64,000 nucleotides of DNA from the NCBI GenBank assembly GCA_033763655.1, contig JANRKD010000007.1, positions 20,796-84,795 of the forward strand. Direction: 5' to 3'. This document shows, in pieces, positions 10,922-51,413 of this stretch (position 1 is the stretch's first letter; each line of letters opens with the position of its first letter). Made by a program: the position numbers and the translations under genes. This DNA is from Alphaproteobacteria bacterium (GTDB lineage Bacteria > Pseudomonadota > Alphaproteobacteria > Rickettsiales > UBA3002). Under the pieces are notes generated by a model. It was not told the origin of the DNA. It worked only from the letters and a program-made list of their open reading frames with translations, and searched no databases.

Positions 10922-12028
10922 CTACTCCCAGATTGCCACGGGCGGCAGCGACATCAGGATAGCCTCGGCATTGCCGCCAGTCATCAGGCCAAAGCGTGTG
11001 CCGCGATCATAAAGCAAATTATACTCTGCATAGCGTCCACGCTTGACCAGTTGGTGATGGCGCTGCTCCTGCGTCCATGGCTCAAACATATGGCGGCGGA
11101 TAATCGCGGGGTAAATATGGGCAAACGCCCGCCCCACCGCCTGCGTGAAGGCAAAGCTTTGCTGCCAGTCAAGCCCCGCGTTCGCGGCCACTTCCATGCC
11201 GCGCGCCGTGGCTTCCTTGCCGACCCCGCCTTTGCCGAACTGACCGGAAGTGATGGGCGCGCGTTCACCCCCAAGGGTATTGAGGCCGAAATAATCATAG
11301 AAAATGCCACCGACGCCGCGCGCGACATTACGGTGGGGAATGAAGAAATACTCGTCGCACCAGTCTTTGAAGGCGGGATAAAATAGCGCCTGCTCCGCAC
11401 GATCGCCTTCCGGCGATTGCTTCGCGCCGCTTCGCGGGCTCATGGCTGTGCTCGCCCGACTCACCGAATCCGCTTCGTCGCACGCCGCTTTGAAGGCGGC
11501 ATGAAAATCGGCCGTGTCCTCGGCCACTTCAAACATCGGGTTCAAATCCCCGCCGCCGCCGAACCACAGGCGCGCGGGCGCGTCACCGACACAAATCATG
11601 CGCGTGTTAAAATGCGCGGCGGGCACCAGCGGCGAGGCCATATGCGCCACCAGCGAAATGCCCGACGCCCAGAAGCGCGGATTCTCCGTCGCGCCGGGAA
11701 TTTCTTTTCTGAACTGCTCGGAAAACTCGCCCTCCACGGTCGAGATATTGACTCCGACTTTCTCGAACACGCGGCCTTTCATCAGCGACATTTCGCCGCT
11801 GCCCCCTCCTTCGCGCGTCCACGCGGTGCGGGTGAAGGTGCCTGCCGGTGCGTCGCTGCCGGTCAGATCGGTTTCAATCGCCTCGAACGCGCCGCAAATC
11901 TGATCGCGCAAGCTGCGAAACCACGCTGCGGCGGTGGCTTTCTTTTCATCGAGCGTCCATTCGACCGCCGGTATTTCCATGACATCGCTCATTCGTTGGG
12001 CATTTTGACTACGCATTACCATCTCCAT
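10922..12028 (-). CDS. hemF: Oxygen-dependent coproporphyrinogen III oxidase with two in-frame insertions
   Basis: [70 protein letters not shown]. Confidence 0.95.
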
Positions 12029-13293: not shown

Positions 13294-14739
13294 ATGGCCC
13301 ACGCACCACAGGAAGAAAAGCCCGGCGTTATCGGTTGGATTGAATACCGTTTGCCGATTTTTTCGATGCTCAGCAACGCGCTGGTCGTCTACCCGACGCC
13401 GCGCAACCTGAACTATTTCTGGAATTTCGGCTCGATTGCGGGCATCATGCTTGTCGCCCAGATTCTCACCGGCATTTTCCTTGCCATGCACTACGCCGCC
13501 TCGACTGCGCTGGCCTTCGATTCGGTCGAGCATATCATGCGCAACGTCAATTACGGCTGGCTGATGCGTTACATGCACGCCGTCGGCGCCTCGATGTTCT
13601 TCATGGTCACCTTCATTCACCTCTTCCGCGGCCTCTATTACGGCTCCTACAAACGCCCGCGCGAGCTGCTCTGGTTCATCGGCGTCATTATCCTGCTCAT
13701 CATGATGGCCACCGCCTTCATGGGCTATGTGTTGCCCTGGGGGCAGATGAGTTTCTGGGGGGCGACGGTGATTACCAACCTGTTTTCGGCCTTCCCGCTT
13801 ATCGGCGATTCCATTGTTTCGTGGCTGTGGGGCGGTTTTTCGGTCGATAACCCAACGCTCAACCGCTTTTTCGCACTGCATTTCCTGCTGCCGTTCGTGC
13901 TGGTCGGCGTGGTGATGGTGCATCTGATGGCGCTGCACCAGCATGGCTCCAGCAACCCGACGGGAATCGACGTCAAGGGCCCGCAGGATCAGATTCCGTT
14001 CCACCCCTATTACACCAGCAAGGATTTCTTCGGTTTCGGCGTCTTTTTCCTGGTGTTTGCGGCGTTTCTTTTCTTCGCGCCGAACTATCTCGGCCACCCG
14101 GATAACTACATCCCCGCCGATCCGCTGGTGACGCCCAAACATATCGTGCCCGAATGGTATTTCCTGCCGTTTTACGCCATTTTACGCGCAATCACTTTCG
14201 ATATTCCGCTCTGGATTCCGGGTATGGGCCTGCTCGGCCTCACCTTCGCGCTGCGCCAGGGTGATCTCATGCGGGCGCTGGTTGGCGGCTCGAAAATCGG
14301 TAGCGTGCTGGTCTCCTTCCTGCCGAAAAAGCGGCTGGGCGGCGCAAGCACCCTCACCCTGCTGGTGCTGGGCGGCCTGCTGACCATCATGGGTTTTGGC
14401 GGCGGCTTTATCGCCTCGAAACTTGGCGGGGTGCTGGCGATGTTTGGCTCAATCGGCATTCTGTTCGCCCTGCCCTGGCTCGATACCAGTCCGGTGCGCT
14501 CGGCCAATTACCGCCCGCTTTACCAGTGGTTCTTCTGGCTGTTTGCGGTCAACGCGGTGGTGCTCGGCTATTGCGGCAGCCAACCGCCCGAAGGCATCTT
14601 CCCGCTGCTGTCGCTGGTCTGCACGGTCTATTATTTCGCGCATTTCCTGATTGTGATGCCCATTCTTGGCCGCATCGAGAAAACGCGCCCGCTGCCGCAA
14701 TCCATCGCGGTCTGCGTCACCCAGAAACCTGCCCGCTAG
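13294..14739 (+). CDS. petB: Cytochrome b of the bc1 complex, with a large internal insertion
   Basis: [53 protein letters not shown]. Confidence 0.97.
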
Positions 14740-22836: not shown

Positions 22837-24678
22837 ATGGCCACAGCTTCCACCATCCGCCGTCTGCCCGCGACCCTCATCAACCGGATTGCCGCAGGCG
22901 AAGTCATCGAGCGCCCGGCATCGGTGGTCAAGGAGCTGGTCGAAAACGCCATCGATGCCGGGGCAAGCGACATCGAGGTGACGCTCGAACAGGGCGGCAT
23001 CAGCCTCATCCGCGTGCGCGACAACGGGCGCGGCATGGGGCCGCACGACCTGCCCCTCGCCCTCGAACGCCACGCCACCAGCAAACTGCCCGACGACGAT
23101 TTGCTCGCCATCCATTTCATGGGGTTTCGTGGCGAGGCGCTGCCTGCGATCGGCTCCATCTCGCGCACCCGCATCAGCAGCCGCGCGCAGGGGGCGGAGG
23201 AAGCCTTCAGCCTCAGCGTCGAGGCGGGGGTGCTCGGCGACATCGTGCCGGCGGCCTTAAGCACCGGCACCCTCATCGAAGTGCGCGACCTGTTTTACGC
23301 CATTCCCGCGCGGCTGAAATTCCTGAAATCCGTGCGCAGCGAAATCAACGCCGTGGTGGACATTCTCGAACGCCTCGCCATGGCCCATCCCGATATTCGT
23401 TTCCGCCTGACGCATGAGGGCCGCCTGCTGCGCGACTTCCCCGCTTTGACGATGGACTGGATCAGCGCCGCCCCGGCCCGGCTCGAAAAAATCCTTGGGG
23501 CGGGCTTTGCCGCCAACACCGCGCCGGTGGAAATGCAGCGCGAGGGCATTCGCGTCACCGGCTTTGCGGGCCTGCCGACGTTTCACCGCAGCACCAGTCA
23601 GGCGCAGTATCTTTTCGTCAACCGCCGCCCGGTGCGCGACCGGCTGCTGCTGGGCGTCATCCGCGCCGCCTACCAGGATTACCTCGCGCGTGACCGCCAC
23701 CCCGTCGCCGTGCTCTTTATCGAGCTGCCCGGCACGCAGGTCGATGTCAACGTCCACCCCGCCAAATCCGAAGTGCGTTTCCGCGATGCCCAACTGGTGC
23801 GCGGGCTGATGTTAAGCGCCGTACGCGCCGCCATCGGCACCACCGCGCAACGCGCCGCCACCACCGTAGCCGATCAGGCGCTGGCGGCGTTTAAGTATGG
23901 GTTGATTGAGAGGGACCTTGTCCCCCACGCTGCGCTGCCCCCTGCCGCGAGCGGTTCGCCCGGAGGGCTACACACGGCTTATTCCAGCCATGCATTTGCT
24001 GCACCCACCGCCCCACTTTGGGGCCGTGACTACTTACCTCCGCAGCACCGCAGCGAAGCCACCCTCCACCAGCCCCTGCCGCCCGCCGCGATGGCCGAGT
24101 ATCCACTTGGCGCAGCGGTGGCCCAGCTTCACCACACCTACATTGTCGCCCAGACGCAAGGCGGGCTGGTGCTGGTCGATCAGCACGCCGCGCACGAGCG
24201 CCTGATGTACGAGACATTCAAGGCCGCGATGGCGTCAGGCGGGGTGCCGCGCCAGCTCCTGCTCCTGCCCGAACCGGTCGAGCTGACCGATGCGCAGGCC
24301 GACCGCCTGATGGGCCGCGCGGCAGAGTGGGCGCAGCTTGGCCTCGTGCTCGAACGGTTCGGCGACGCCAGCGTGCTGGTGCGTGAAGTGCCCGCCCTGC
24401 TCGGGGATACGGACATCGCCGGTCTCGTGCGCGATCTGGCTGACAACCTCGCTTTTTACGATGATGGGCTGGCACTGGCCGATGCGCTCGAAGCCATCCT
24501 CAGCACGATGGCCTGCCACGGTTCCGTGCGCGCCGGGCGGCCAATGAATCTTAACGAAATGAACGCCCTGCTGCGGCAGATGGAGGCCACCCCGTTCTCC
24601 GGCCAGTGCAACCATGGCCGCCCGACCTATGTCGCCCTCGCCAAAGCCGATATCGAAAAGCTGTTCGGGCGGCGTTAG
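22837..24678 (+). CDS. mutL: DNA mismatch repair protein MutL
   Basis: IAAGEVIERPASVVKELVEN, GFRGEAL, DQHAAHER endonuclease motif, ACH, CNHGRPT. Confidence 0.97.
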   Translation: MATASTIRRLPATLINRIAAGEVIERPASVVKELVENAIDAGASDIEVTLEQGGISLIRVRDNGRGMGPHDLPLALERHATSKLPDDDLLAIHFMGFRGEALPAIGSISRTRISSRAQGAEEAFSLSVEAGVLGDIVPAALSTGTLIEVRDLFYAIPARLKFLKSVRSEINAVVDILERLAMAHPDIRFRLTHEGRLLRDFPALTMDWISAAPARLEKILGAGFAANTAPVEMQREGIRVTGFAGLPTFHRSTSQAQYLFVNRRPVRDRLLLGVIRAAYQDYLARDRHPVAVLFIELPGTQVDVNVHPAKSEVRFRDAQLVRGLMLSAVRAAIGTTAQRAATTVADQALAAFKYGLIERDLVPHAALPPAASGSPGGLHTAYSSHAFAAPTAPLWGRDYLPPQHRSEATLHQPLPPAAMAEYPLGAAVAQLHHTYIVAQTQGGLVLVDQHAAHERLMYETFKAAMASGGVPRQLLLLPEPVELTDAQADRLMGRAAEWAQLGLVLERFGDASVLVREVPALLGDTDIAGLVRDLADNLAFYDDGLALADALEAILSTMACHGSVRAGRPMNLNEMNALLRQMEATPFSGQCNHGRPTYVALAKADIEKLFGRR

Positions 24679-24730: not shown

Positions 24731-24836
24731 CCTCTCCCCAGCCCTCTCCCGTGTCACGCCGTCTTTTTCAAACAAGACAGACCCCGTCATTCGACGGGGT
24801 GACAAGTGGGGATAGGGCGCTGTTGGGGTGACAAGC
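24731..24836. repeat. Cluster of degenerate REP/RPE-like palindrome remnants between convergent mutL and purH
   Basis: CCTCTCCCCAGCCCTCTCCCG, TGTCACGCCGTC..., hairpin ACCCCGTC-attc-GACGGGGT followed by GACAAG; GGGGTGACAAG occurs twice. Confidence 0.6.
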
Positions 24837-24886
24837 GGTGAGGCTTGGGGAGTACCGGCGACTGGCTATCGGCCATTGGCGGCTAC

Positions 24887-49178: not shown

Positions 49179-50303
49179 TTAGAACGCAACCTGCGTACCG
49201 AGAATGAATACGGTACCGCTGTTGTCGTCAGCCGAAACGCCCGGGACGCTGAAATCGTAGAACGATACTTCAGCATAGGGGGTCAGGCCGGCAGCGAGTT
49301 TGTACTCAGCACCGAGAACAACGTTGGTAAAGTCGTTGTTTTCCAGTTCCGAATCAAGGTAGGTCGCCGAAACAGCAACCGGGCCAGCAGCATAGGCGCC
49401 GCCGAGGGTCCAGTAGTCACCGTTGACTTCCAGATCACCGCCCGTTGCGGTACCCGAACGGTTCCAGTCACCATACGAACCAGCAACGCTGAAGCCTTTG
49501 TAACCGGCGAGAGCGCCGAGGTTCCAGGCGTTGATGTTTTTCGCACCAAGACCCGAAGTGCCGGCAGTGCCTTCACCTTTACCGAACTCGTAGGTACCCG
49601 AAGCAGCCAGTTTGATGCCGCTGAAGGTGCCTTCGTAGCCCAGACCCAGATCCACCACATCGCTTACGCTTGCGGTCTCGCTACGCGAGAGGGTTTGGCC
49701 ACGACCGTCGATTTGCGGGGTGTAGCTGACGCCACCCTGGAAGCCCATGACTTTCGGGGTGTAGTAGCTGACTTTGGTTGCGTTGTAAGTGGTTTCATCA
49801 CCGAATGCGGTGGTGCTGCCATGTTCACCCGGCAGTTTTGCCGTGCTGATGAATTGGGTAGCGTTGGTGCCAGCTACAAAGTTTACCCACGAACCATTGA
49901 TACCACCGGTAGCGGATGCAACGGTCGAAGCATCGATACGCATCGTCGAAGCAACCGACTTGTTGCCACCGAGTTCAACGCGACCGAATTTGCTGTCGAG
50001 GTAGGTGAAGGTACGCGAAGCGTTGCTACCTTGGTTGTTGACGTCGTTCGTCGTATCTGCTTCCAGATCGATTTCCGCGCCGTAGCCCAGGCCGCCATCG
50101 GTTTTACCGTCAACTTTGATGGTGATTTCGTTGTCGTTACGGAAACCGGTGCTGCGGGTAGTTGCGTCTTTATCGTCGCTCACCCAGCCAGCTTGGAAAT
50201 CCGAAAAACCACCAAGGGTTACTTTCGGGGTTTCAGCCGAAGCTGCCGTTGCAAGCAATGCCACAGCGACGAGCCCGGTTGTACCAAGAAGAATTTTTTT
50301 CAT
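49179..50303 (-). CDS. Outer-membrane porin
   Basis: MKKILLGTT signal peptide, G.TDGGL.YG, FGRVELG, YYTP..GFQ.G.SY, C-terminal Phe. Confidence 0.9.
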   Translation of the reverse strand: MKKILLGTTGLVAVALLATAASAETPKVTLGGFSDFQAGWVSDDKDATTRSTGFRNDNEITIKVDGKTDGGLGYGAEIDLEADTTNDVNNQGSNASRTFTYLDSKFGRVELGGNKSVASTMRIDASTVASATGGINGSWVNFVAGTNATQFISTAKLPGEHGSTTAFGDETTYNATKVSYYTPKVMGFQGGVSYTPQIDGRGQTLSRSETASVSDVVDLGLGYEGTFSGIKLAASGTYEFGKGEGTAGTSGLGAKNINAWNLGALAGYKGFSVAGSYGDWNRSGTATGGDLEVNGDYWTLGGAYAAGPVAVSATYLDSELENNDFTNVVLGAEYKLAAGLTPYAEVSFYDFSVPGVSADDNSGTVFILGTQVAF

Positions 50304-50582
50304 GATCAGTTCCTTCTTTAATGAAAATAAAATGTGACAATAAGCAGACTGCCCATCATCACCCGAATGAACAGGGGACACACCATTGATGCGACCACTG
50401 TTCCACGGGCCCATTTATTAGCCTGCCCGCCCCGCCAAGCAAGCAGCCCCAAGCTTTTTATCGCCCCGACCCCCCCTTTAAGTCCGTTCTGTTGCAGTTA
50501 TGTCACAAGTGCGGCATTGGCCGAACCCTGGGCAAAGGAAAGGCTGGACTCGCCGGTTAAGCCCCTGTATTTCAGTAAAACT

Positions 50583-51413
50583 ATGAACGATTCCCACACG
50601 CATGGCAGTCTTGCCACACGGCTTGCAGCCCTGCAACAGGGGCTGGCCGCGCCATCCCCTGTTGATTATTTACGCGCAGGCGCGCCTGATGGGGGCCTTG
50701 CCCCCAAGCCCCTGCCGCTCGCGGCTCGCCCGGGGGGCTTCGCATCGCCCCATCCTACGACACAGCTGGCCGCGCCATCCCCTGTTGATTATTTACGCGC
50801 AGGCGCGCCTGATGGGGGCCTTGCCCACCCCATCCTCATCGGTGCCAGCAAAACCCAGCCGGTGGCGCTGCTGGAAGAGGCCATCACCCTCGGCCTCACC
50901 GATTTTGGCGAAAACCGGGTGCAGGAAGCCGCCGCCAAATGGCCCGCCCTGCGCGCGAAATACCCGAACCTGCGGCTCCACCTCATCGGCCCGCTGCAAT
51001 CGAACAAGGCCGCCGAAGCGGTGGCGCTGTTCGATGTCATTCACAGCATCGACCGGGTTAAAATTGCCGAAGCCGTGGCCGCCGCCTGCCGGAAACAAGG
51101 CCGCCACCCCGCCCTGCTGATTCAGGTGAATACCGGCGAGGAGCCGCAGAAAGCCGGGGTGCCCCCGCGCGACGTCGCGGCGTTGTTGGCCCATTGTCGC
51201 ACGCTCGGGCTACCGGTTGTCGGACTGATGTGCGTGCCGCCGGAGGGCGAAAACCCCGCGCCGCATTTTGCCCTGATGAAAAAAATGGCGGCGCAGCTTG
51301 GGCTTTGCGAACTCAGCATGGGCATGAGCAGCGATTATGAAACCGCCCTGCGCCTGGGCAGCACCATGATCCGTGTAGGCACCGCGCTGTTTGGAGCAAG
51401 GGACGGGCACTAA
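50583..51413 (+). CDS. yggS: PLP homeostasis protein YggS with a repeat-derived N-terminal insertion
   Basis: ASKT, FGENRVQE, HLIGPLQSNK, GLMC.PP, LSMGMS.D, RVGTALFG.R. Confidence 0.93.
   Translation: MNDSHTHGSLATRLAALQQGLAAPSPVDYLRAGAPDGGLAPKPLPLAARPGGFASPHPTTQLAAPSPVDYLRAGAPDGGLAHPILIGASKTQPVALLEEAITLGLTDFGENRVQEAAAKWPALRAKYPNLRLHLIGPLQSNKAAEAVALFDVIHSIDRVKIAEAVAAACRKQGRHPALLIQVNTGEEPQKAGVPPRDVAALLAHCRTLGLPVVGLMCVPPEGENPAPHFALMKKMAAQLGLCELSMGMSSDYETALRLGSTMIRVGTALFGARDGH
50642..50826 (+). repeat. 62-bp exact direct repeat (50642-50703 and 50765-50826) around a palindromic element inside yggS
   Basis: GCTGGCCGCGCCATCCCCTG...GATGGGGGCCTTGCCC twice, offset 123 bp (in frame). Confidence 0.92.

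What the first reader, a model, noticed from the sequence alone, without database searches (positions are those of the whole stretch)
50642..50836. yggS carries an in-frame nested palindromic element plus an exact 62-bp duplication
About 55-60 extra residues precede the PLP-binding ASKT lysine, with LAAPSPVDYLRAGAPDGGLA present twice. The DNA has exact 62-bp direct repeats 123 bp apart and nested arms: GATGGGG/CCCCATC (50688 / 50748), AAGCCCC/GGGGCTT and GCCGC/GCGGC. The identical copies imply a recent event, and the frame is preserved. With related copies in mutL, ampG and upstream of ampG, this defines an apparently active RPE-like element family that adds peptide segments to housekeeping proteins in a high-GC alphaproteobacterium. 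No mobilising enzyme is in the window. Recombination between the repeats would remove 41 codons cleanly.
Basis: partly seen in the sequence, partly recalled or inferred. Interest (0 to 1): 0.72.

Follow-up and report, generated by a model that had tools for sequence, protein, structure and literature searches.

The report
Repeat element duplicated inside yggS
A small hairpin-rich DNA repeat that this bacterial genus carries inside many housekeeping genes sits in frame in yggS, and part of it was later copied again next door, lengthening a floppy surface loop of the protein without touching its core.

Summary
Observation confirmed. Two exact 62-bp copies (50642-50703, 50765-50826) lie 123 bp apart, in frame in yggS (50583-51413). 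About 54-55 extra residues precede Lys90.

The DNA spanning the first copy's end (about 50666-50744) belongs to a 60-85-nt multi-hairpin repeat family. This 1.86-Mb genome holds 9 copies, 7 of them inside ORFs: mutL, mutY-like, M20 peptidase, ABC ATPase, priA twice, yggS. A covariance model finds the family in 22 of 23 other genomes of the genus (1-67 hits) and in 0 of 17 outside it. It has no terminal inverted repeats and no target duplications. It carries a GTAG tag beside a covarying hairpin. It is REP/BIME-like and behaves like Rickettsia RPEs. The claimed ampG copies were not found.

The element in yggS is old, shared with other species. The 62-bp repeat is a separate, young, local event. 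It copies flank plus the element's 5' half and ends inside hairpin 1. A ~95%-identical strain in soil metagenomes lacks an 81-nt segment that contains the second copy, and a sludge contig carries the second copy. Own-genome copies are only 64-90% alike and no Y1/RAYT gene is present, so "active" is unsupported here. AlphaFold2 models the insert as a low-confidence loop with the barrel intact. New member of a known kind.

The parts
50583..51413 (+). yggS (PLP homeostasis protein, 276 aa) including the stop codon
   Evidence: Open frame. Pfam Ala_racemase_N matches residues 99-273, E 1.3e-19. PDB YggS/PipY chains match query 81-274. The N terminus is shared with relatives.
50634..50664 (+). Locus-specific palindrome (14-nt arms, 93% complementary) spanning the junction of the native N-terminal helix coding part and repeat copy 1
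   Evidence: the repeat finder pair I5. The G003 orthologue keeps the palindrome with a changed pair (read).
50642..50703 (+). Copy 1 of the exact 62-bp direct repeat: about 24 nt of flank plus the 5' part of the element
   Evidence: Boundaries relative to the element.
50666..50744 (+). In-frame copy of the genus-specific multi-hairpin repeat (short-form subfamily). The core model matches 50687-50744; the 5' extension is about 50666-50686.
   Evidence: nhmmer and the covariance model hit C7 71482-71539, which is window 50687-50744. The 5' extension is shared with 8 other short-form copies.
50691..50705 (+). Hairpin 1 (GGGGGCCTTGCCCCC). The 3' end of the 62-bp repeat falls inside its 3' arm.
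   Evidence: exact match. The stem covaries in the family: pair 10-16 reads GC in 11 copies and AU in 9.
50709..50730 (+). Conserved core with the inner palindrome GCCGC/GCGGC
   Evidence: 2 matches in the window against 0.01 expected. The core columns are invariant in 24 of 24 aligned copies.
50728..50744 (+). Hairpin 4 (GCCC..GGGC) followed by the 3' terminal motif. This copy reads CTTC where 21 of 24 aligned copies read CTAC (GTAG on the other strand).
   Evidence: Alignment A1. Pair 68-78 reads GC in 10 copies and CG in 8.
50704..50764 (+). 61-bp spacer between the repeat copies: the rest of the element plus 20 nt
50765..50826 (+). Copy 2 of the exact 62-bp repeat (the young duplicate)
   Evidence: Bridged on both sides by a 211-nt contig of run X1. 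Missing from the contigs of runs X2, X6 and X9.
50748..50828 (+). 81-nt segment (27 codons) absent from the closest strain seen in public runs. Its ends lie in a 9-nt direct repeat CCCCATCCT (50748-50756 and 50828-50836).
   Evidence: read laying joint 50747|50829, skips 81, 3 nt ambiguous. The 249-aa protein P0002 lacks 27 residues.
50850..50852 (+). Codon of Lys90, the PLP-binding lysine of the GASKT motif
   Evidence: K90 is invariant in 57 of 57 aligned YggS sequences. It aligns to the AVSKT lysine of solved YggS chains.
23907..23974 (+). Second copy of the same family in the window, in frame in the mutL interdomain linker
   Evidence: nhmmer and the covariance model. The mutL ORF is 22837-24678 with Pfam MutL domains on both sides of the copy.

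Best explanation
yggS carries two layers of extra DNA in the connection between its N-terminal helix and the first barrel strand.

**Layer 1 (old).** This is one in-frame copy of a genus-specific, 60-85-nt, multi-hairpin REP/BIME-like repeat. The repeat has no terminal inverted repeats and makes no target duplication. It ends in a GC-rich hairpin followed by CTAC (GTAG on the other strand). It is stop-free in certain frames of either orientation. It therefore survives inside genes wherever it lands in a tolerant loop, adding about 20-30 residues, as Rickettsia RPEs and intragenic GTAG/CGTC REPs do. Inferred, not shown: it spread as single-stranded hairpin DNA through a Y1 (RAYT-type) transposase, which this genome no longer has.

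**Layer 2 (young).** This is a local, non-tandem duplication. It copies about 24 nt of upstream flank plus the 5' half of that element and places the copy 61 nt downstream, in frame. Its 3' breakpoint lies inside hairpin 1.

My preferred reading, which is inference, is a replication template switch at the hairpin. This would be a 57-nt (19-codon) templated insertion between CAG and GCC-CAC-CCC, with 1 nt and 4 nt of microhomology, so that the visible identity reaches 62 nt.

The result is a 55-residue, probably disordered surface loop. The TIM barrel and the PLP lysine are unchanged. The loop length differs between close strains.
For: **Family in this genome**
- nhmmer converges on 9 copies.
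- 7 of the 9 lie inside ORFs whose Pfam domains flank them: MutL, HhH-GPD+NUDIX_4, Peptidase_M20, ABC_tran, PriA (2 tandem copies) and YggS.
- The other 2 lie just 3' of ORFs.

**Distribution**
- Covariance model R1 hits G000 (8) and 22 of 23 other genomes of the genus (1-67 hits each). It hits 0 of 17 genomes outside the genus.
- A scan of 185,579 species genomes for the core gave 86 stretches, of which 80 loci were held and scored. Full-length element matches lie in 22 of those 80. All 22 come from MAGs titled Rickettsiales bacterium, Azospirillum or Alphaproteobacteria bacterium.

**In-frame copies in relatives**
- Of 13 fragments scanned, 9 matched a Pfam family above its cut-off: CPSase_L_D2, Radical_SAM, NAD_synthase, Exonuc_VII_L, CTP_transf_3, Pro_dh, AICARFT_IMPCHas, Fer4_ETF_QO, and a second site in YggS of G003.
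- The same priA zinc-finger loop holds a forward copy in G011 and a reverse copy in G003, and none here. That means independent insertions.

**Architecture**
- 0 of 41 copies have a flanking direct repeat of 3 nt or more, and the termini are not inverted repeats.
- CTAC is present in 21 of 24 aligned copies.
- Two pairs covary, GC:11/AU:9 and GC:10/CG:8. 89.9-97.4% of cells are paired, against 40-61% when partners are slid.

**The insertion in yggS is old**
- The same short-form element sits at the same place, 16 residues after the QQ motif, in G003, G006, the soil strain and two metagenome proteins (P0004, P0005); a third, P0007, keeps only a truncated copy there.

**The duplicate is real and young**
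- It is exact over 62 of 62 nt.
- The closest strain is a 5555-nt contig in runs X2 and X6 (a matching 1181-nt contig in X9; two studies in all). It has 21 differences in 470 aligned nt. It lacks 81 nt (50748-50828) and differs from copy 1 at 4 of 62 positions.
- That strain's protein, P0002, is 27 residues shorter. Identity is 29 of 35 in the linker against 188 of 194 in the barrel.
- A 211-nt contig of run X1 runs unbroken through spacer, copy 2 and downstream gene.

**Protein**
- AlphaFold2 with a 57-row alignment gives mean pLDDT 85.5. The helix is residues 10-22. Residues 23-82 are coil at pLDDT 44-68. Strand 1 is residues 84-88 and the barrel is above 94.
- K90 and the other conserved residues are intact.
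Against: - **Folding.** The yggS copy folded alone is not more stable than shuffled sequence (z = -0.69).
- **Mobilising enzyme.**
  - No Y1 transposase was found in G000. A RAYT-like gene (NCBIfam REP_Tyr_transpos, 55.9 bits, below the 80-bit cut-off) occurs in only 2 of 23 sister genomes, G015 and G016.
  - It is not flanked by element copies. Genomes with 67, 40 and 40 hits (G003, G019, G023) lack it. The proposed mobilisation is therefore inference.
- **Coding-frame test.** 18 of 25 copies have an open frame across the copy plus 120 nt on each side. Random genome positions reach 1515 of 2000, so the test only shows that copies do not avoid genes.
- **ABC-ATPase host.** This host ORF is split into two frames about 60-130 nt upstream of its copy. 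It may be broken.
- **Polarity of the 81-nt difference is not settled.**
  - The ends lie in a 9-nt direct repeat 80 nt apart, not 81.
  - H-P-I-L-I-G-A-S-K after copy 2 is the native motif of G003, G008, G018 and G020. This fits a deletion in the soil strain as well.
- **G003 junction.** G003 has the same first 10 nt repeated 123 nt apart, with unrelated sequence after them. This hints that the spacer-to-copy-2 junction is older than the exact identity suggests.
- **Run X1.** The contig is short, has depth 2.7, carries 4 clustered differences at the 5' end of copy 2, and could come from the sample the window was assembled from.
- **Counts and tree.** Model counts per genome are lower bounds, because 118 candidates were scored per genome. 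The MutL tree has 8 of 16 inner branches unresolved.
Confidence: 0.75

Rival explanations
1. The duplication is old rather than recent. An A-B-A arrangement predates the split from G003-like species. The two copies in this genome are identical because of recent gene conversion, and the soil strain lost the second copy by deletion between the CCCCATCCT repeats.
For: - G003 and metagenome protein P0005 have a third segment after the element that starts with the same 10 nt (or LAA/LAV residues) as the first, at the same 123-nt spacing.
- The sequence after copy 2 (H-P-I-L-I-G-A-S-K) is the native motif kept in G003, G008, G018 and G020. The soil strain lacks the His.
- The 81-nt difference is bounded by a 9-nt direct repeat.
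- The X1 contig has 4 differences in the first 14 nt of copy 2, 0 in the next 48, and 1 in the 149 nt of flank it covers. This looks like a conversion-tract edge.
Against: - Beyond the first 10 nt, the third segment of G003 is not similar to copy A above shuffles (score 20 against 15.7 +/- 2.2, maximum 23). It looks like a decayed reverse-oriented element instead.
- The repeats are 80 nt apart, so a simple repeat-mediated deletion would shift the frame.
- Zero differences in 62 nt, where the linker differs by 4 in 62 between the two strains, needs an extra conversion event.
Confidence: 0.3
2. The second copy is an assembly artefact of a metagenome-assembled genome, for example two strain alleles stitched together.
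For: - The genome is in 28 contigs and its relatives are MAGs.
- No public run holds the whole stretch; the best holds 0.26 of the sampled words.
- Alleles with a full element (soil strain) and with a truncated element (L117/P0007) both exist in nature.
Against: - The spacer-to-copy-2 junction and the junction of copy 2 with the downstream gene both lie inside one 211-nt contig of run X1. That contig differs from the window at 5 positions.
- The arrangement is in frame and keeps the native downstream motif.
- Neither junction could be produced by joining the two known allele types.
Confidence: 0.05
3. The repeat is kept inside genes because it does something. It might act as an RNA structure (transcript stabiliser, pause or terminator-like signal) or as a useful peptide module, rather than being tolerated selfish DNA.
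For: - Hairpin stems covary.
- Two own-genome copies and several copies in relatives sit right at the 3' ends of genes.
- Published GTAG/CGTC REPs are mostly downstream of genes, and many are thought to act as RNA elements (PMC3733652, abstract passage read).
- The encoded peptide is conserved between unrelated host proteins.
Against: - Copies occur in both orientations and in different frames.
- Orthologous sites are empty in most sister species: 15 of 19 mutL genes whose linker was read lack it.
- The yggS linker evolves about five times faster than the barrel and decays to unrecognisable sequence in sister species.
- The insert is predicted to be disordered.
- No Rfam family matches.
Confidence: 0.12
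4. The extra segment is ordinary lineage-specific low-complexity linker sequence, and the similarity between genes is compositional chance rather than a mobile repeat.
For: - The genome is 59% G+C and rich in short GC palindromes. A 15-nt hairpin pattern with 3 mismatches is at chance level in the window (8 found, 5.97 expected).
- The single-copy fold is not significant.
Against: - The 22-nt core occurs twice in the window against 0.01 expected.
- Full-length matches reach E 1e-13 to 1e-19.
- The same DNA is found in both orientations, in coding and non-coding places, and only within one genus.
Confidence: 0.02

Closest known systems
Rickettsia palindromic elements (RPE), Ogata et al. 2000, as summarised in PMC10969869 and PMC3733652 (passages read)
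   Same: - Short palindromic repeats found many times in frame inside unrelated housekeeping genes.
- Each copy adds a conserved peptide in a place the fold tolerates.
- No transposase of their own.
- Copies decay with time.
   Different: - No sequence relationship was tested or is apparent.
- This family is shorter (60-85 nt against about 100-150 bp) and very GC-rich.
- It carries a GTAG-type tag, whereas RPEs end in CGTC (PMC3733652).
- It lives in a 1.6-2.7-Mb, 59% G+C environmental genus rather than an obligate intracellular one.
GTAG-tagged REPs / BIME-like mosaics and their RAYT (Y1) transposases (Di Nocera et al. 2013, PMC3733652, passages read)
   Same: - A GC-rich hairpin directly next to GTAG, with no terminal inverted repeats and no target duplication.
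- Copy number differs greatly between related genomes.
- Intragenic copies, many in replication and repair genes (here mutL, mutY-like, priA, xseA).
- Dimers and head-to-head pairs occur.
   Different: - The unit is a mosaic of 3-4 hairpins around an invariant 21-nt core, not a single 20-40-bp palindrome.
- A RAYT-like gene was found in only 2 of 23 sister genomes and none here.
- That gene scores below the NCBIfam cut-off and is not flanked by the repeat.
Bacterial MITEs with intragenic in-frame copies (ERIC, Coxiella QMITE, Anabaena MITEs; review PMC10969869, passage read)
   Same: Small non-autonomous repeats that can form in-frame fusions with host ORFs.
   Different: The defining terminal inverted repeats and target-site duplications were tested and not met.
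Hairpin-promoted replication slippage / template-switch duplications (general knowledge, recalled; no paper read)
   Same: - A short non-tandem duplicate lies close to its source.
- One breakpoint is inside a hairpin arm.
- Junction microhomology is 1-4 nt.
- The outcome is in frame and polymorphic between strains.
   Different: The event itself was not observed. The ancestral sequence at the insertion point is inferred from other species.

Membership tests
YggS / PLPBP (PLP homeostasis protein, fold-type III) | Alanine-racemase N-terminal-type TIM barrel domain | tested here: met
   - Pfam PF01168 matches residues 99-273 at 71.2 bits (cut-off 24.1).
- PDB 3r79_A gives E 6.9e-69; E. coli YggS 1w8g_A gives E 1.2e-28.
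- The AlphaFold2 model shows an alternating strand/helix barrel at pLDDT above 94.
YggS / PLPBP (PLP homeostasis protein, fold-type III) | PLP-binding lysine in the (A/G)(V/A)SK(T) motif at the end of strand 1 | tested here: met
   K90 in GASKT is invariant in 57 of 57 aligned sequences. It aligns with the AVSKT of the solved chains. PLP binding itself was not tested.
Rickettsia palindromic elements (RPE) | Sequence membership in one of the described RPE families | not tested
   No RPE sequence was available from a tool. Rfam holds no match for 50300-51000. This is a resemblance in behaviour only.
Rickettsia palindromic elements (RPE) | Palindromic repeat inserted in frame in many unrelated protein-coding genes | tested here: met
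   7 of 9 own-genome copies lie inside ORFs with Pfam-supported hosts. Of 13 fragments from relatives, 9 carry copies inside Pfam-recognised domains.
GTAG-tagged REP | GC-rich imperfect palindrome with the tetranucleotide GTAG at one end | tested here: met
   Hairpin 4 is followed by CTAC in 21 of 24 aligned copies. The stem pair covaries, GC:10/CG:8. The yggS copy itself reads CTTC.
GTAG-tagged REP | Short single palindromic unit of 20-40 bp | tested here: not met
   The repeated unit is 56-85 nt with 3-4 hairpins and an invariant core. It resembles a BIME-like mosaic that contains a REP-like module.
GTAG-tagged REP | Association with a RAYT (REP-associated tyrosine transposase) gene | tested here: inconclusive
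   - PF01797 gives 0 hits in G000 and hits in 4 of 23 sister genomes.
- A single-copy RAYT-like ORF lies next to dnaK in G015 and G016 only.
- It scores 55.9 bits against the 80-bit cut-off of NF047646.
- No element copies flank it.
MITE | Terminal inverted repeats | tested here: not met
   The first 10 nt and the reverse complement of the last 10 nt of 41 copies are not alike (listed).
MITE | Target-site duplication flanking each copy | tested here: not met
   2 of 41 copies share 2 nt across the element. 0 of 41 share 3 nt or more.

The most novel reading that the evidence does not exclude
The family is a selfish repeat adapted to life inside genes. It is stop-free in one frame forward and two frames reverse, and it lands repeatedly in the same permissive loops of replication and repair proteins. 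It would be mobilised by something other than a RAYT, since most genomes with dozens of copies have no Y1 transposase. Even after losing its mobilising enzyme, its hairpins would keep producing templated insertions and deletions. These would make strain-specific disordered loops in essential enzymes, of which the yggS duplication is a caught example.
Probability: 0.2. Interest if true: 0.65.

Novelty: new member of a known kind. Interest (0 to 1): 0.42.

Why it matters
In-frame palindromic repeats are best known from Rickettsia and from a few REP-rich genomes. Here the same behaviour appears in an uncultured, high-GC environmental alphaproteobacterial genus:
- a well-delimited family, found in 22 of 23 sister genomes and in none of 17 outside the genus;
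- repeated hits in mutL, mutY-like, priA, xseA and central metabolic enzymes;
- independent insertions in opposite orientation at one priA loop.

This gives a natural series (empty, occupied, decayed, duplicated sites) for asking how proteins tolerate and recruit inserted segments, and what mobilises REP-like mosaics where no RAYT is present.

The yggS case adds a small, concrete point. After insertion, the hairpins themselves seem to seed further length changes that differ between strains about 95% identical.

For annotation, such inserts explain over-long housekeeping proteins in these MAGs and should not be called frameshifts or misassemblies.

Tried and rejected
- **Closer strains in metagenome contigs.** A scan with the YggS protein returned 80 loci, the best at 61-64% identity. 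Only L117 (= P0007) was informative.
- **Public runs.** No run holds the whole stretch; the best share of sampled words is 0.26.
- **Rfam.** A search of 50300-51000 at E <= 1 gave 0 matches.
- **Single-sequence DNA fold of the yggS element.** Not better than shuffles, so it is not used as support.
- **RNAalifold consensus.** It proposed a long-range AGGGG/CCCCT helix with no covariation. I used the local hairpins instead.
- **G003's third linker segment as a diverged copy of the 62-mer.** Local alignment was not above shuffles beyond the first 10 nt.
- **Simple models of the repeat, each rejected on the sequence.**
  - A tandem duplication of a 123-nt unit: the second spacer is absent.
  - An element with a 62-bp target duplication: the copy-1-to-spacer junction is internal to the element in every family member.
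  - Transposition of the 62-mer: it has no other copy in the genome, and no transposase is present.
- **Open frame across each copy plus 120 nt.** The test proved non-discriminating, 18 of 25 against 1515 of 2000 random positions.
- **'One open frame per orientation'.** Too strong. Among 40 distinct copies the open frames are F1 35, F2 22, F0 12, R0 32, R2 29 and R1 3.
- **Not done.**
  - No complex prediction or fold search was run, because no claim needs them.
  - The window was not scanned exhaustively for other transposase families.
  - Supplementary files of the two papers were not opened.
Full report
**1. The observation**

The window is contig C7:20796-84795 of a 1,858,131-base, 28-contig genome with 59.3% G+C.

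- The repeat finder reports two 62-nt copies at 50642-50703 and 50765-50826, 100% identical, 123 nt apart.
- BLAST of the window against the genome gives E = 1.07e-23 for the pair. The 62-mer has no other match longer than 17 nt in the genome.
- The copies lie in the open frame 50334..51413. The start shared with relatives is the ATG at 50583, giving 276 residues.
- The protein is a YggS/PLPBP:
  - Pfam Ala_racemase_N matches residues 99-273.
  - PDB 3r79_A matches at E 6.9e-69, and E. coli YggS 1w8g_A aligns query 84-274 to chain residues 30-230.
- The lysine of GASKT is residue 90, invariant in 57 of 57 aligned homologues. That is 54 residues later than in E. coli YggS and 55 later than in the shortest form in the genus.
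- The stretch 50664-50757 folded alone as DNA is not more stable than shuffles (z = -0.69).

**2. What the DNA around the first copy is**

The 61-nt spacer had partial matches elsewhere in the genome. Extending and iterating with nhmmer gave a family of 9 copies:

| Location | Context |
|---|---|
| C7 44702-44769 (window 23907-23974) | mutL linker |
| C1 46055-46120 | HhH-GPD+NUDIX_4 (MutY-type) ORF |
| C2 110493-110558 | Peptidase_M20 ORF |
| C28 26923-26992 | ABC_tran frame |
| C18, two tandem copies | priA |
| yggS copy | yggS |
| C18 and C28, one each | Just 3' of a tyrosine-recombinase ORF and an ABC-ATPase ORF |

Hosts were named by Pfam.

- Seven of the nine copies are inside ORFs, in either orientation, without stops.
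- One caution: the ABC host is split into two frames about 60-130 nt upstream of its copy.
- The claimed ampG copies are not there.

**3. Anatomy of the family**

This rests on an alignment of 24 copies and on flanks of 41 copies.

- The long form runs from TGAAGGGG to GCTACGCA. In order it has:
  - a first hairpin;
  - an optional variable hairpin;
  - an invariant core with the inner GCCGC/GCGGC palindrome;
  - a variable-length hairpin followed by CTAC.
- A short-form subfamily lacks the stretch between hairpin 1 and the core. It has a conserved 5' extension after an AT-rich flank. The yggS copy belongs to this subfamily, which occurs at unrelated loci in G000, G003, G005, G013, G015 and G017.
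- In yggS the element therefore spans about 50666-50744.
- Two stem positions covary, GC:11/AU:9 and GC:10/CG:8. 89.9-97.4% of cells pair, against 40-61% with slid partners. Related copies can inflate such counts.
- There are no terminal inverted repeats. 0 of 41 copies have a flanking direct repeat of 3 nt or more.
- CTAC, which is GTAG on the other strand, stands next to the last hairpin in 21 of 24 copies.
- Among 40 distinct copies the stop-free frames are F1 35, F2 22, F0 12, R0 32, R2 29 and R1 3.

**4. Distribution**

- A covariance model finds the family in G000 (8 hits) and in 22 of 23 other genomes of the same genus. Counts run from 1 to 67 hits per genome: G003 67; G016, G019 and G023 40 each; G015 36.
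- It finds the family in 0 of 17 genomes of other genera and families of the order. Counts are lower bounds, because 118 candidates were scored per genome and many genomes are fragmented MAGs.
- A scan of one genome per species (185,579 species) for the 21-nt core gave 86 stretches, of which 80 loci were held and scored. Full-length matches occur in 22 of those 80. All 22 come from MAGs whose record titles read Rickettsiales bacterium, Azospirillum, or Alphaproteobacteria bacterium.
- The other matches cover the pattern only and come from unrelated GC-rich taxa.

**5. In-frame copies in relatives, and evidence of past mobility**

- Of 13 fragments around copies in sister genomes, 9 matched a Pfam family above its cut-off with the repeat inside the frame. 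The families were CPSase_L_D2, Radical_SAM, NAD_synthase, Exonuc_VII_L, CTP_transf_3, Pro_dh, AICARFT_IMPCHas, Fer4_ETF_QO and Ala_racemase_N. The last is a second site in G003's yggS.
- Three more fragments are priA by BLASTP to this genome's PriA. At one zinc-finger loop G011 has a forward copy, G003 a reverse copy, and one MAG a forward plus a reverse copy. This genome has none there. These are independent insertions into one permissive loop.
- In mutL the copy is present in G000 and its MutL-tree sister G017 (support 92/89). It is also present in G001, and decayed in G001's sister G013. It is absent from the other 15 of the 19 genes whose linker could be read.
- The tree is from one protein, and 8 of its 16 inner branches are unresolved.
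- The open-frame test (18 of 25 copies against 1515 of 2000 random positions) shows only that copies do not avoid genes.

**6. Age and activity in this genome**

- Own-genome copies are 64-90% identical, median 74%.
- PF01797 (Y1 transposase) has no hit in G000 and hits in 4 of 23 sister genomes.
- A single-copy RAYT-like ORF next to dnaK occurs only in G015 and G016.
- That ORF scores 55.9 bits against the 80-bit cut-off of NCBIfam REP_Tyr_transpos and has no element copies beside it.
- 'Active family' is therefore not supported for this genome, and the mobilising enzyme remains inferred.

**7. The yggS linker in relatives**

- Between the conserved SLATRLAALQQ and ILIGASKTQP the genus has anything from 12 to 76 residues.
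- The short-form element sits at the same place in G003, G006, the soil strain P0002 and metagenome proteins P0004 and P0005.
- P0007 (= L117) keeps the flank and hairpin-1 part but has lost the core.
- G005 keeps only the 5' part.
- G015, G002 and G013 have a long-form copy 10 residues closer to QQ.
- G008, G018 and G020 have short linkers ending in the native H-P-(I/V)-L motif.
- The element insertion in yggS is therefore old, and the region is an indel hot spot.

**8. The 62-bp repeat itself**

- It comprises about 24 nt of locus-specific flank, which itself forms a palindrome at 50634-50664, plus the 5' half of the element. It ends inside the 3' arm of hairpin 1.
- The junction of copy 1 with the spacer is the normal interior of the element in every family member. 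The new junctions are therefore spacer|copy 2 (50764|50765) and copy 2|downstream gene (50826|50827).
- Laying public contigs gave two results.
  - **Soil strain.**
    - A 5555-nt contig in runs X2 and X6 (a matching 1181-nt contig in X9; two studies in all) covers 50450-50747 and then 50829-51000. It skips 81 nt, with 3 nt ambiguous.
    - It has 13 + 8 differences in 298 + 172 nt, 4 of them within copy 1.
    - Its protein, P0002, is 249 aa, 27 residues shorter. Identity is 29 of 35 in the linker against 188 of 194 in the barrel.
  - **Sludge strain.**
    - A 211-nt contig of run X1 (depth 2.7) runs unbroken over 50730-50940, across both new junctions.
    - It has 5 differences, 4 of them in the first 14 nt of copy 2.
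- The arrangement therefore exists outside this assembly and is polymorphic between close strains.
- With 4 of 62 differences between strains in copy 1, zero differences between the two copies argues that they last shared a template after the split from the soil strain.

**9. Mechanism (inference)**

- If the sequence after the duplicate (GCC CAC CCC ATC CTC, A-H-P-I-L) is the native one, as in G003, G008, G018 and G020, then the inserted DNA is 57 nt (19 codons).
- It would be flanked by 1 nt (G) and 4 nt (GCCC) shared with the target, which extends the visible identity to 62 nt.
- A polymerase stalling in hairpin 1 and switching template fits the breakpoints.
- The rival is an older A-B-A arrangement kept identical by gene conversion, with a deletion in the soil strain between the CCCCATCCT repeats at 50748 and 50828.
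  - The rival is supported by the 10-nt repeat at the same 123-nt spacing in G003 and by the clustered X1 differences.
  - It is weakened by the 80-nt (not 81-nt) spacing and by the lack of any further similarity in G003.
- I put the recent-duplication reading at about twice the odds of the rival.

**10. Consequence for the protein**

- AlphaFold2 (57-row alignment, mean pLDDT 85.5, pTM 0.80) gives helix 10-22 at pLDDT about 95.
- Residues 23-82 are coil at 44-68, with two 4-5-residue helical turns, one in each copy of the duplicated PVDY(L) stretch.
- Strand 1 is residues 84-88, and the barrel is above 94.
- The insert is a surface loop between helix 1 and strand 1. All invariant residues are present.
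- Function was not tested.

**11. Comparison with what is known**

- The behaviour matches RPEs. The review PMC10969869 (passage read) describes ten RPE families, 44 integrations in R. conorii genes, and nearly half in frame.
- It also matches the intragenic GTAG/CGTC REPs of Di Nocera et al. 2013 (PMC3733652, passages read). That paper notes that many such copies lie in replication and repair genes and that RAYT genes and REP families do not correlate well.
- This family shares the GTAG tag, the lack of TIR and TSD, and the host-gene bias. It differs in being a 3-4-hairpin mosaic with an invariant core.
- It fails the MITE definition.
- Two full-text searches found no description of such a family in this lineage. 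The lineage has no name I could search for, so this is weak evidence of absence from print.

**12. Verdict**

- It is a new member of a known kind, of moderate interest.

Noticed in passing
window 11330-11560 (hemF ORF 10925-12028, minus strand); G000:C8:57000-57040: The coproporphyrinogen oxidase ORF is 368 aa against a 295-position Pfam profile matched in two stretches. It carries an in-frame insert of about 26 residues. 41 nt of that insert (90% identical) recur inside a semialdehyde-dehydrogenase-family ORF on contig C8. This is a second, different small in-frame repeat family.
   Followed up: partly
window 24759-24840 (between mutL and purH): Another repeat family with about 30 partial copies across the genome, several at contig ends (C9, C17, C24). 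It is probably an intergenic repeat that breaks the assembly.
   Followed up: partly
L027 / G003:C81:4527-5476: G003's yggS carries the linker copy plus a decayed reverse-oriented copy, a second in-frame copy between residues 173 and 174 of the barrel, and a further copy overlapping its stop codon. That makes four element-derived pieces within 1 kb.
   Followed up: partly
G000:C18:35777-35929 (priA); L203, L210, L053: This genome's priA holds two tandem in-frame copies at one site. In other species a different priA site (the zinc-finger loop) holds forward, reverse or paired copies.
   Followed up: partly
L246 (G015:C27:34552-35130) and G016:C138:382-933: A single-copy RAYT-like Y1 transposase gene lies next to dnaK in two sister genomes only. 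The two are 83% identical to each other. The gene scores below the NCBIfam cut-off and is not flanked by the repeat.
   Followed up: partly
window 50765-50778: The X1 contig differs from the window at 4 positions within the first 14 nt of copy 2, at none in the next 48, and at 1 in the 149 nt of flank it covers. The cause is unexplained: a conversion-tract edge, a different junction, or low-depth error.
   Followed up: no
G000:C28:26520-28198: A twin-ATPase ABC ORF is split into two overlapping frames, between the FQDP and SLNPR motifs, about 60-130 nt upstream of its element copy. This is a frameshift, a sequencing error or a pseudogene.
   Followed up: no
5' flanks of 41 element copies: The 4-6 nt before the element are AT-rich (often TTGAT, TTTAT or GTTA) in a 59% G+C genome. 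This may reflect a target preference like that of IS200/IS605-type elements.
   Followed up: no
window 13294-14739: The cytochrome b ORF is 481 aa with its C-terminal Pfam domain matched in two stretches. It may hold another insert.
   Followed up: no
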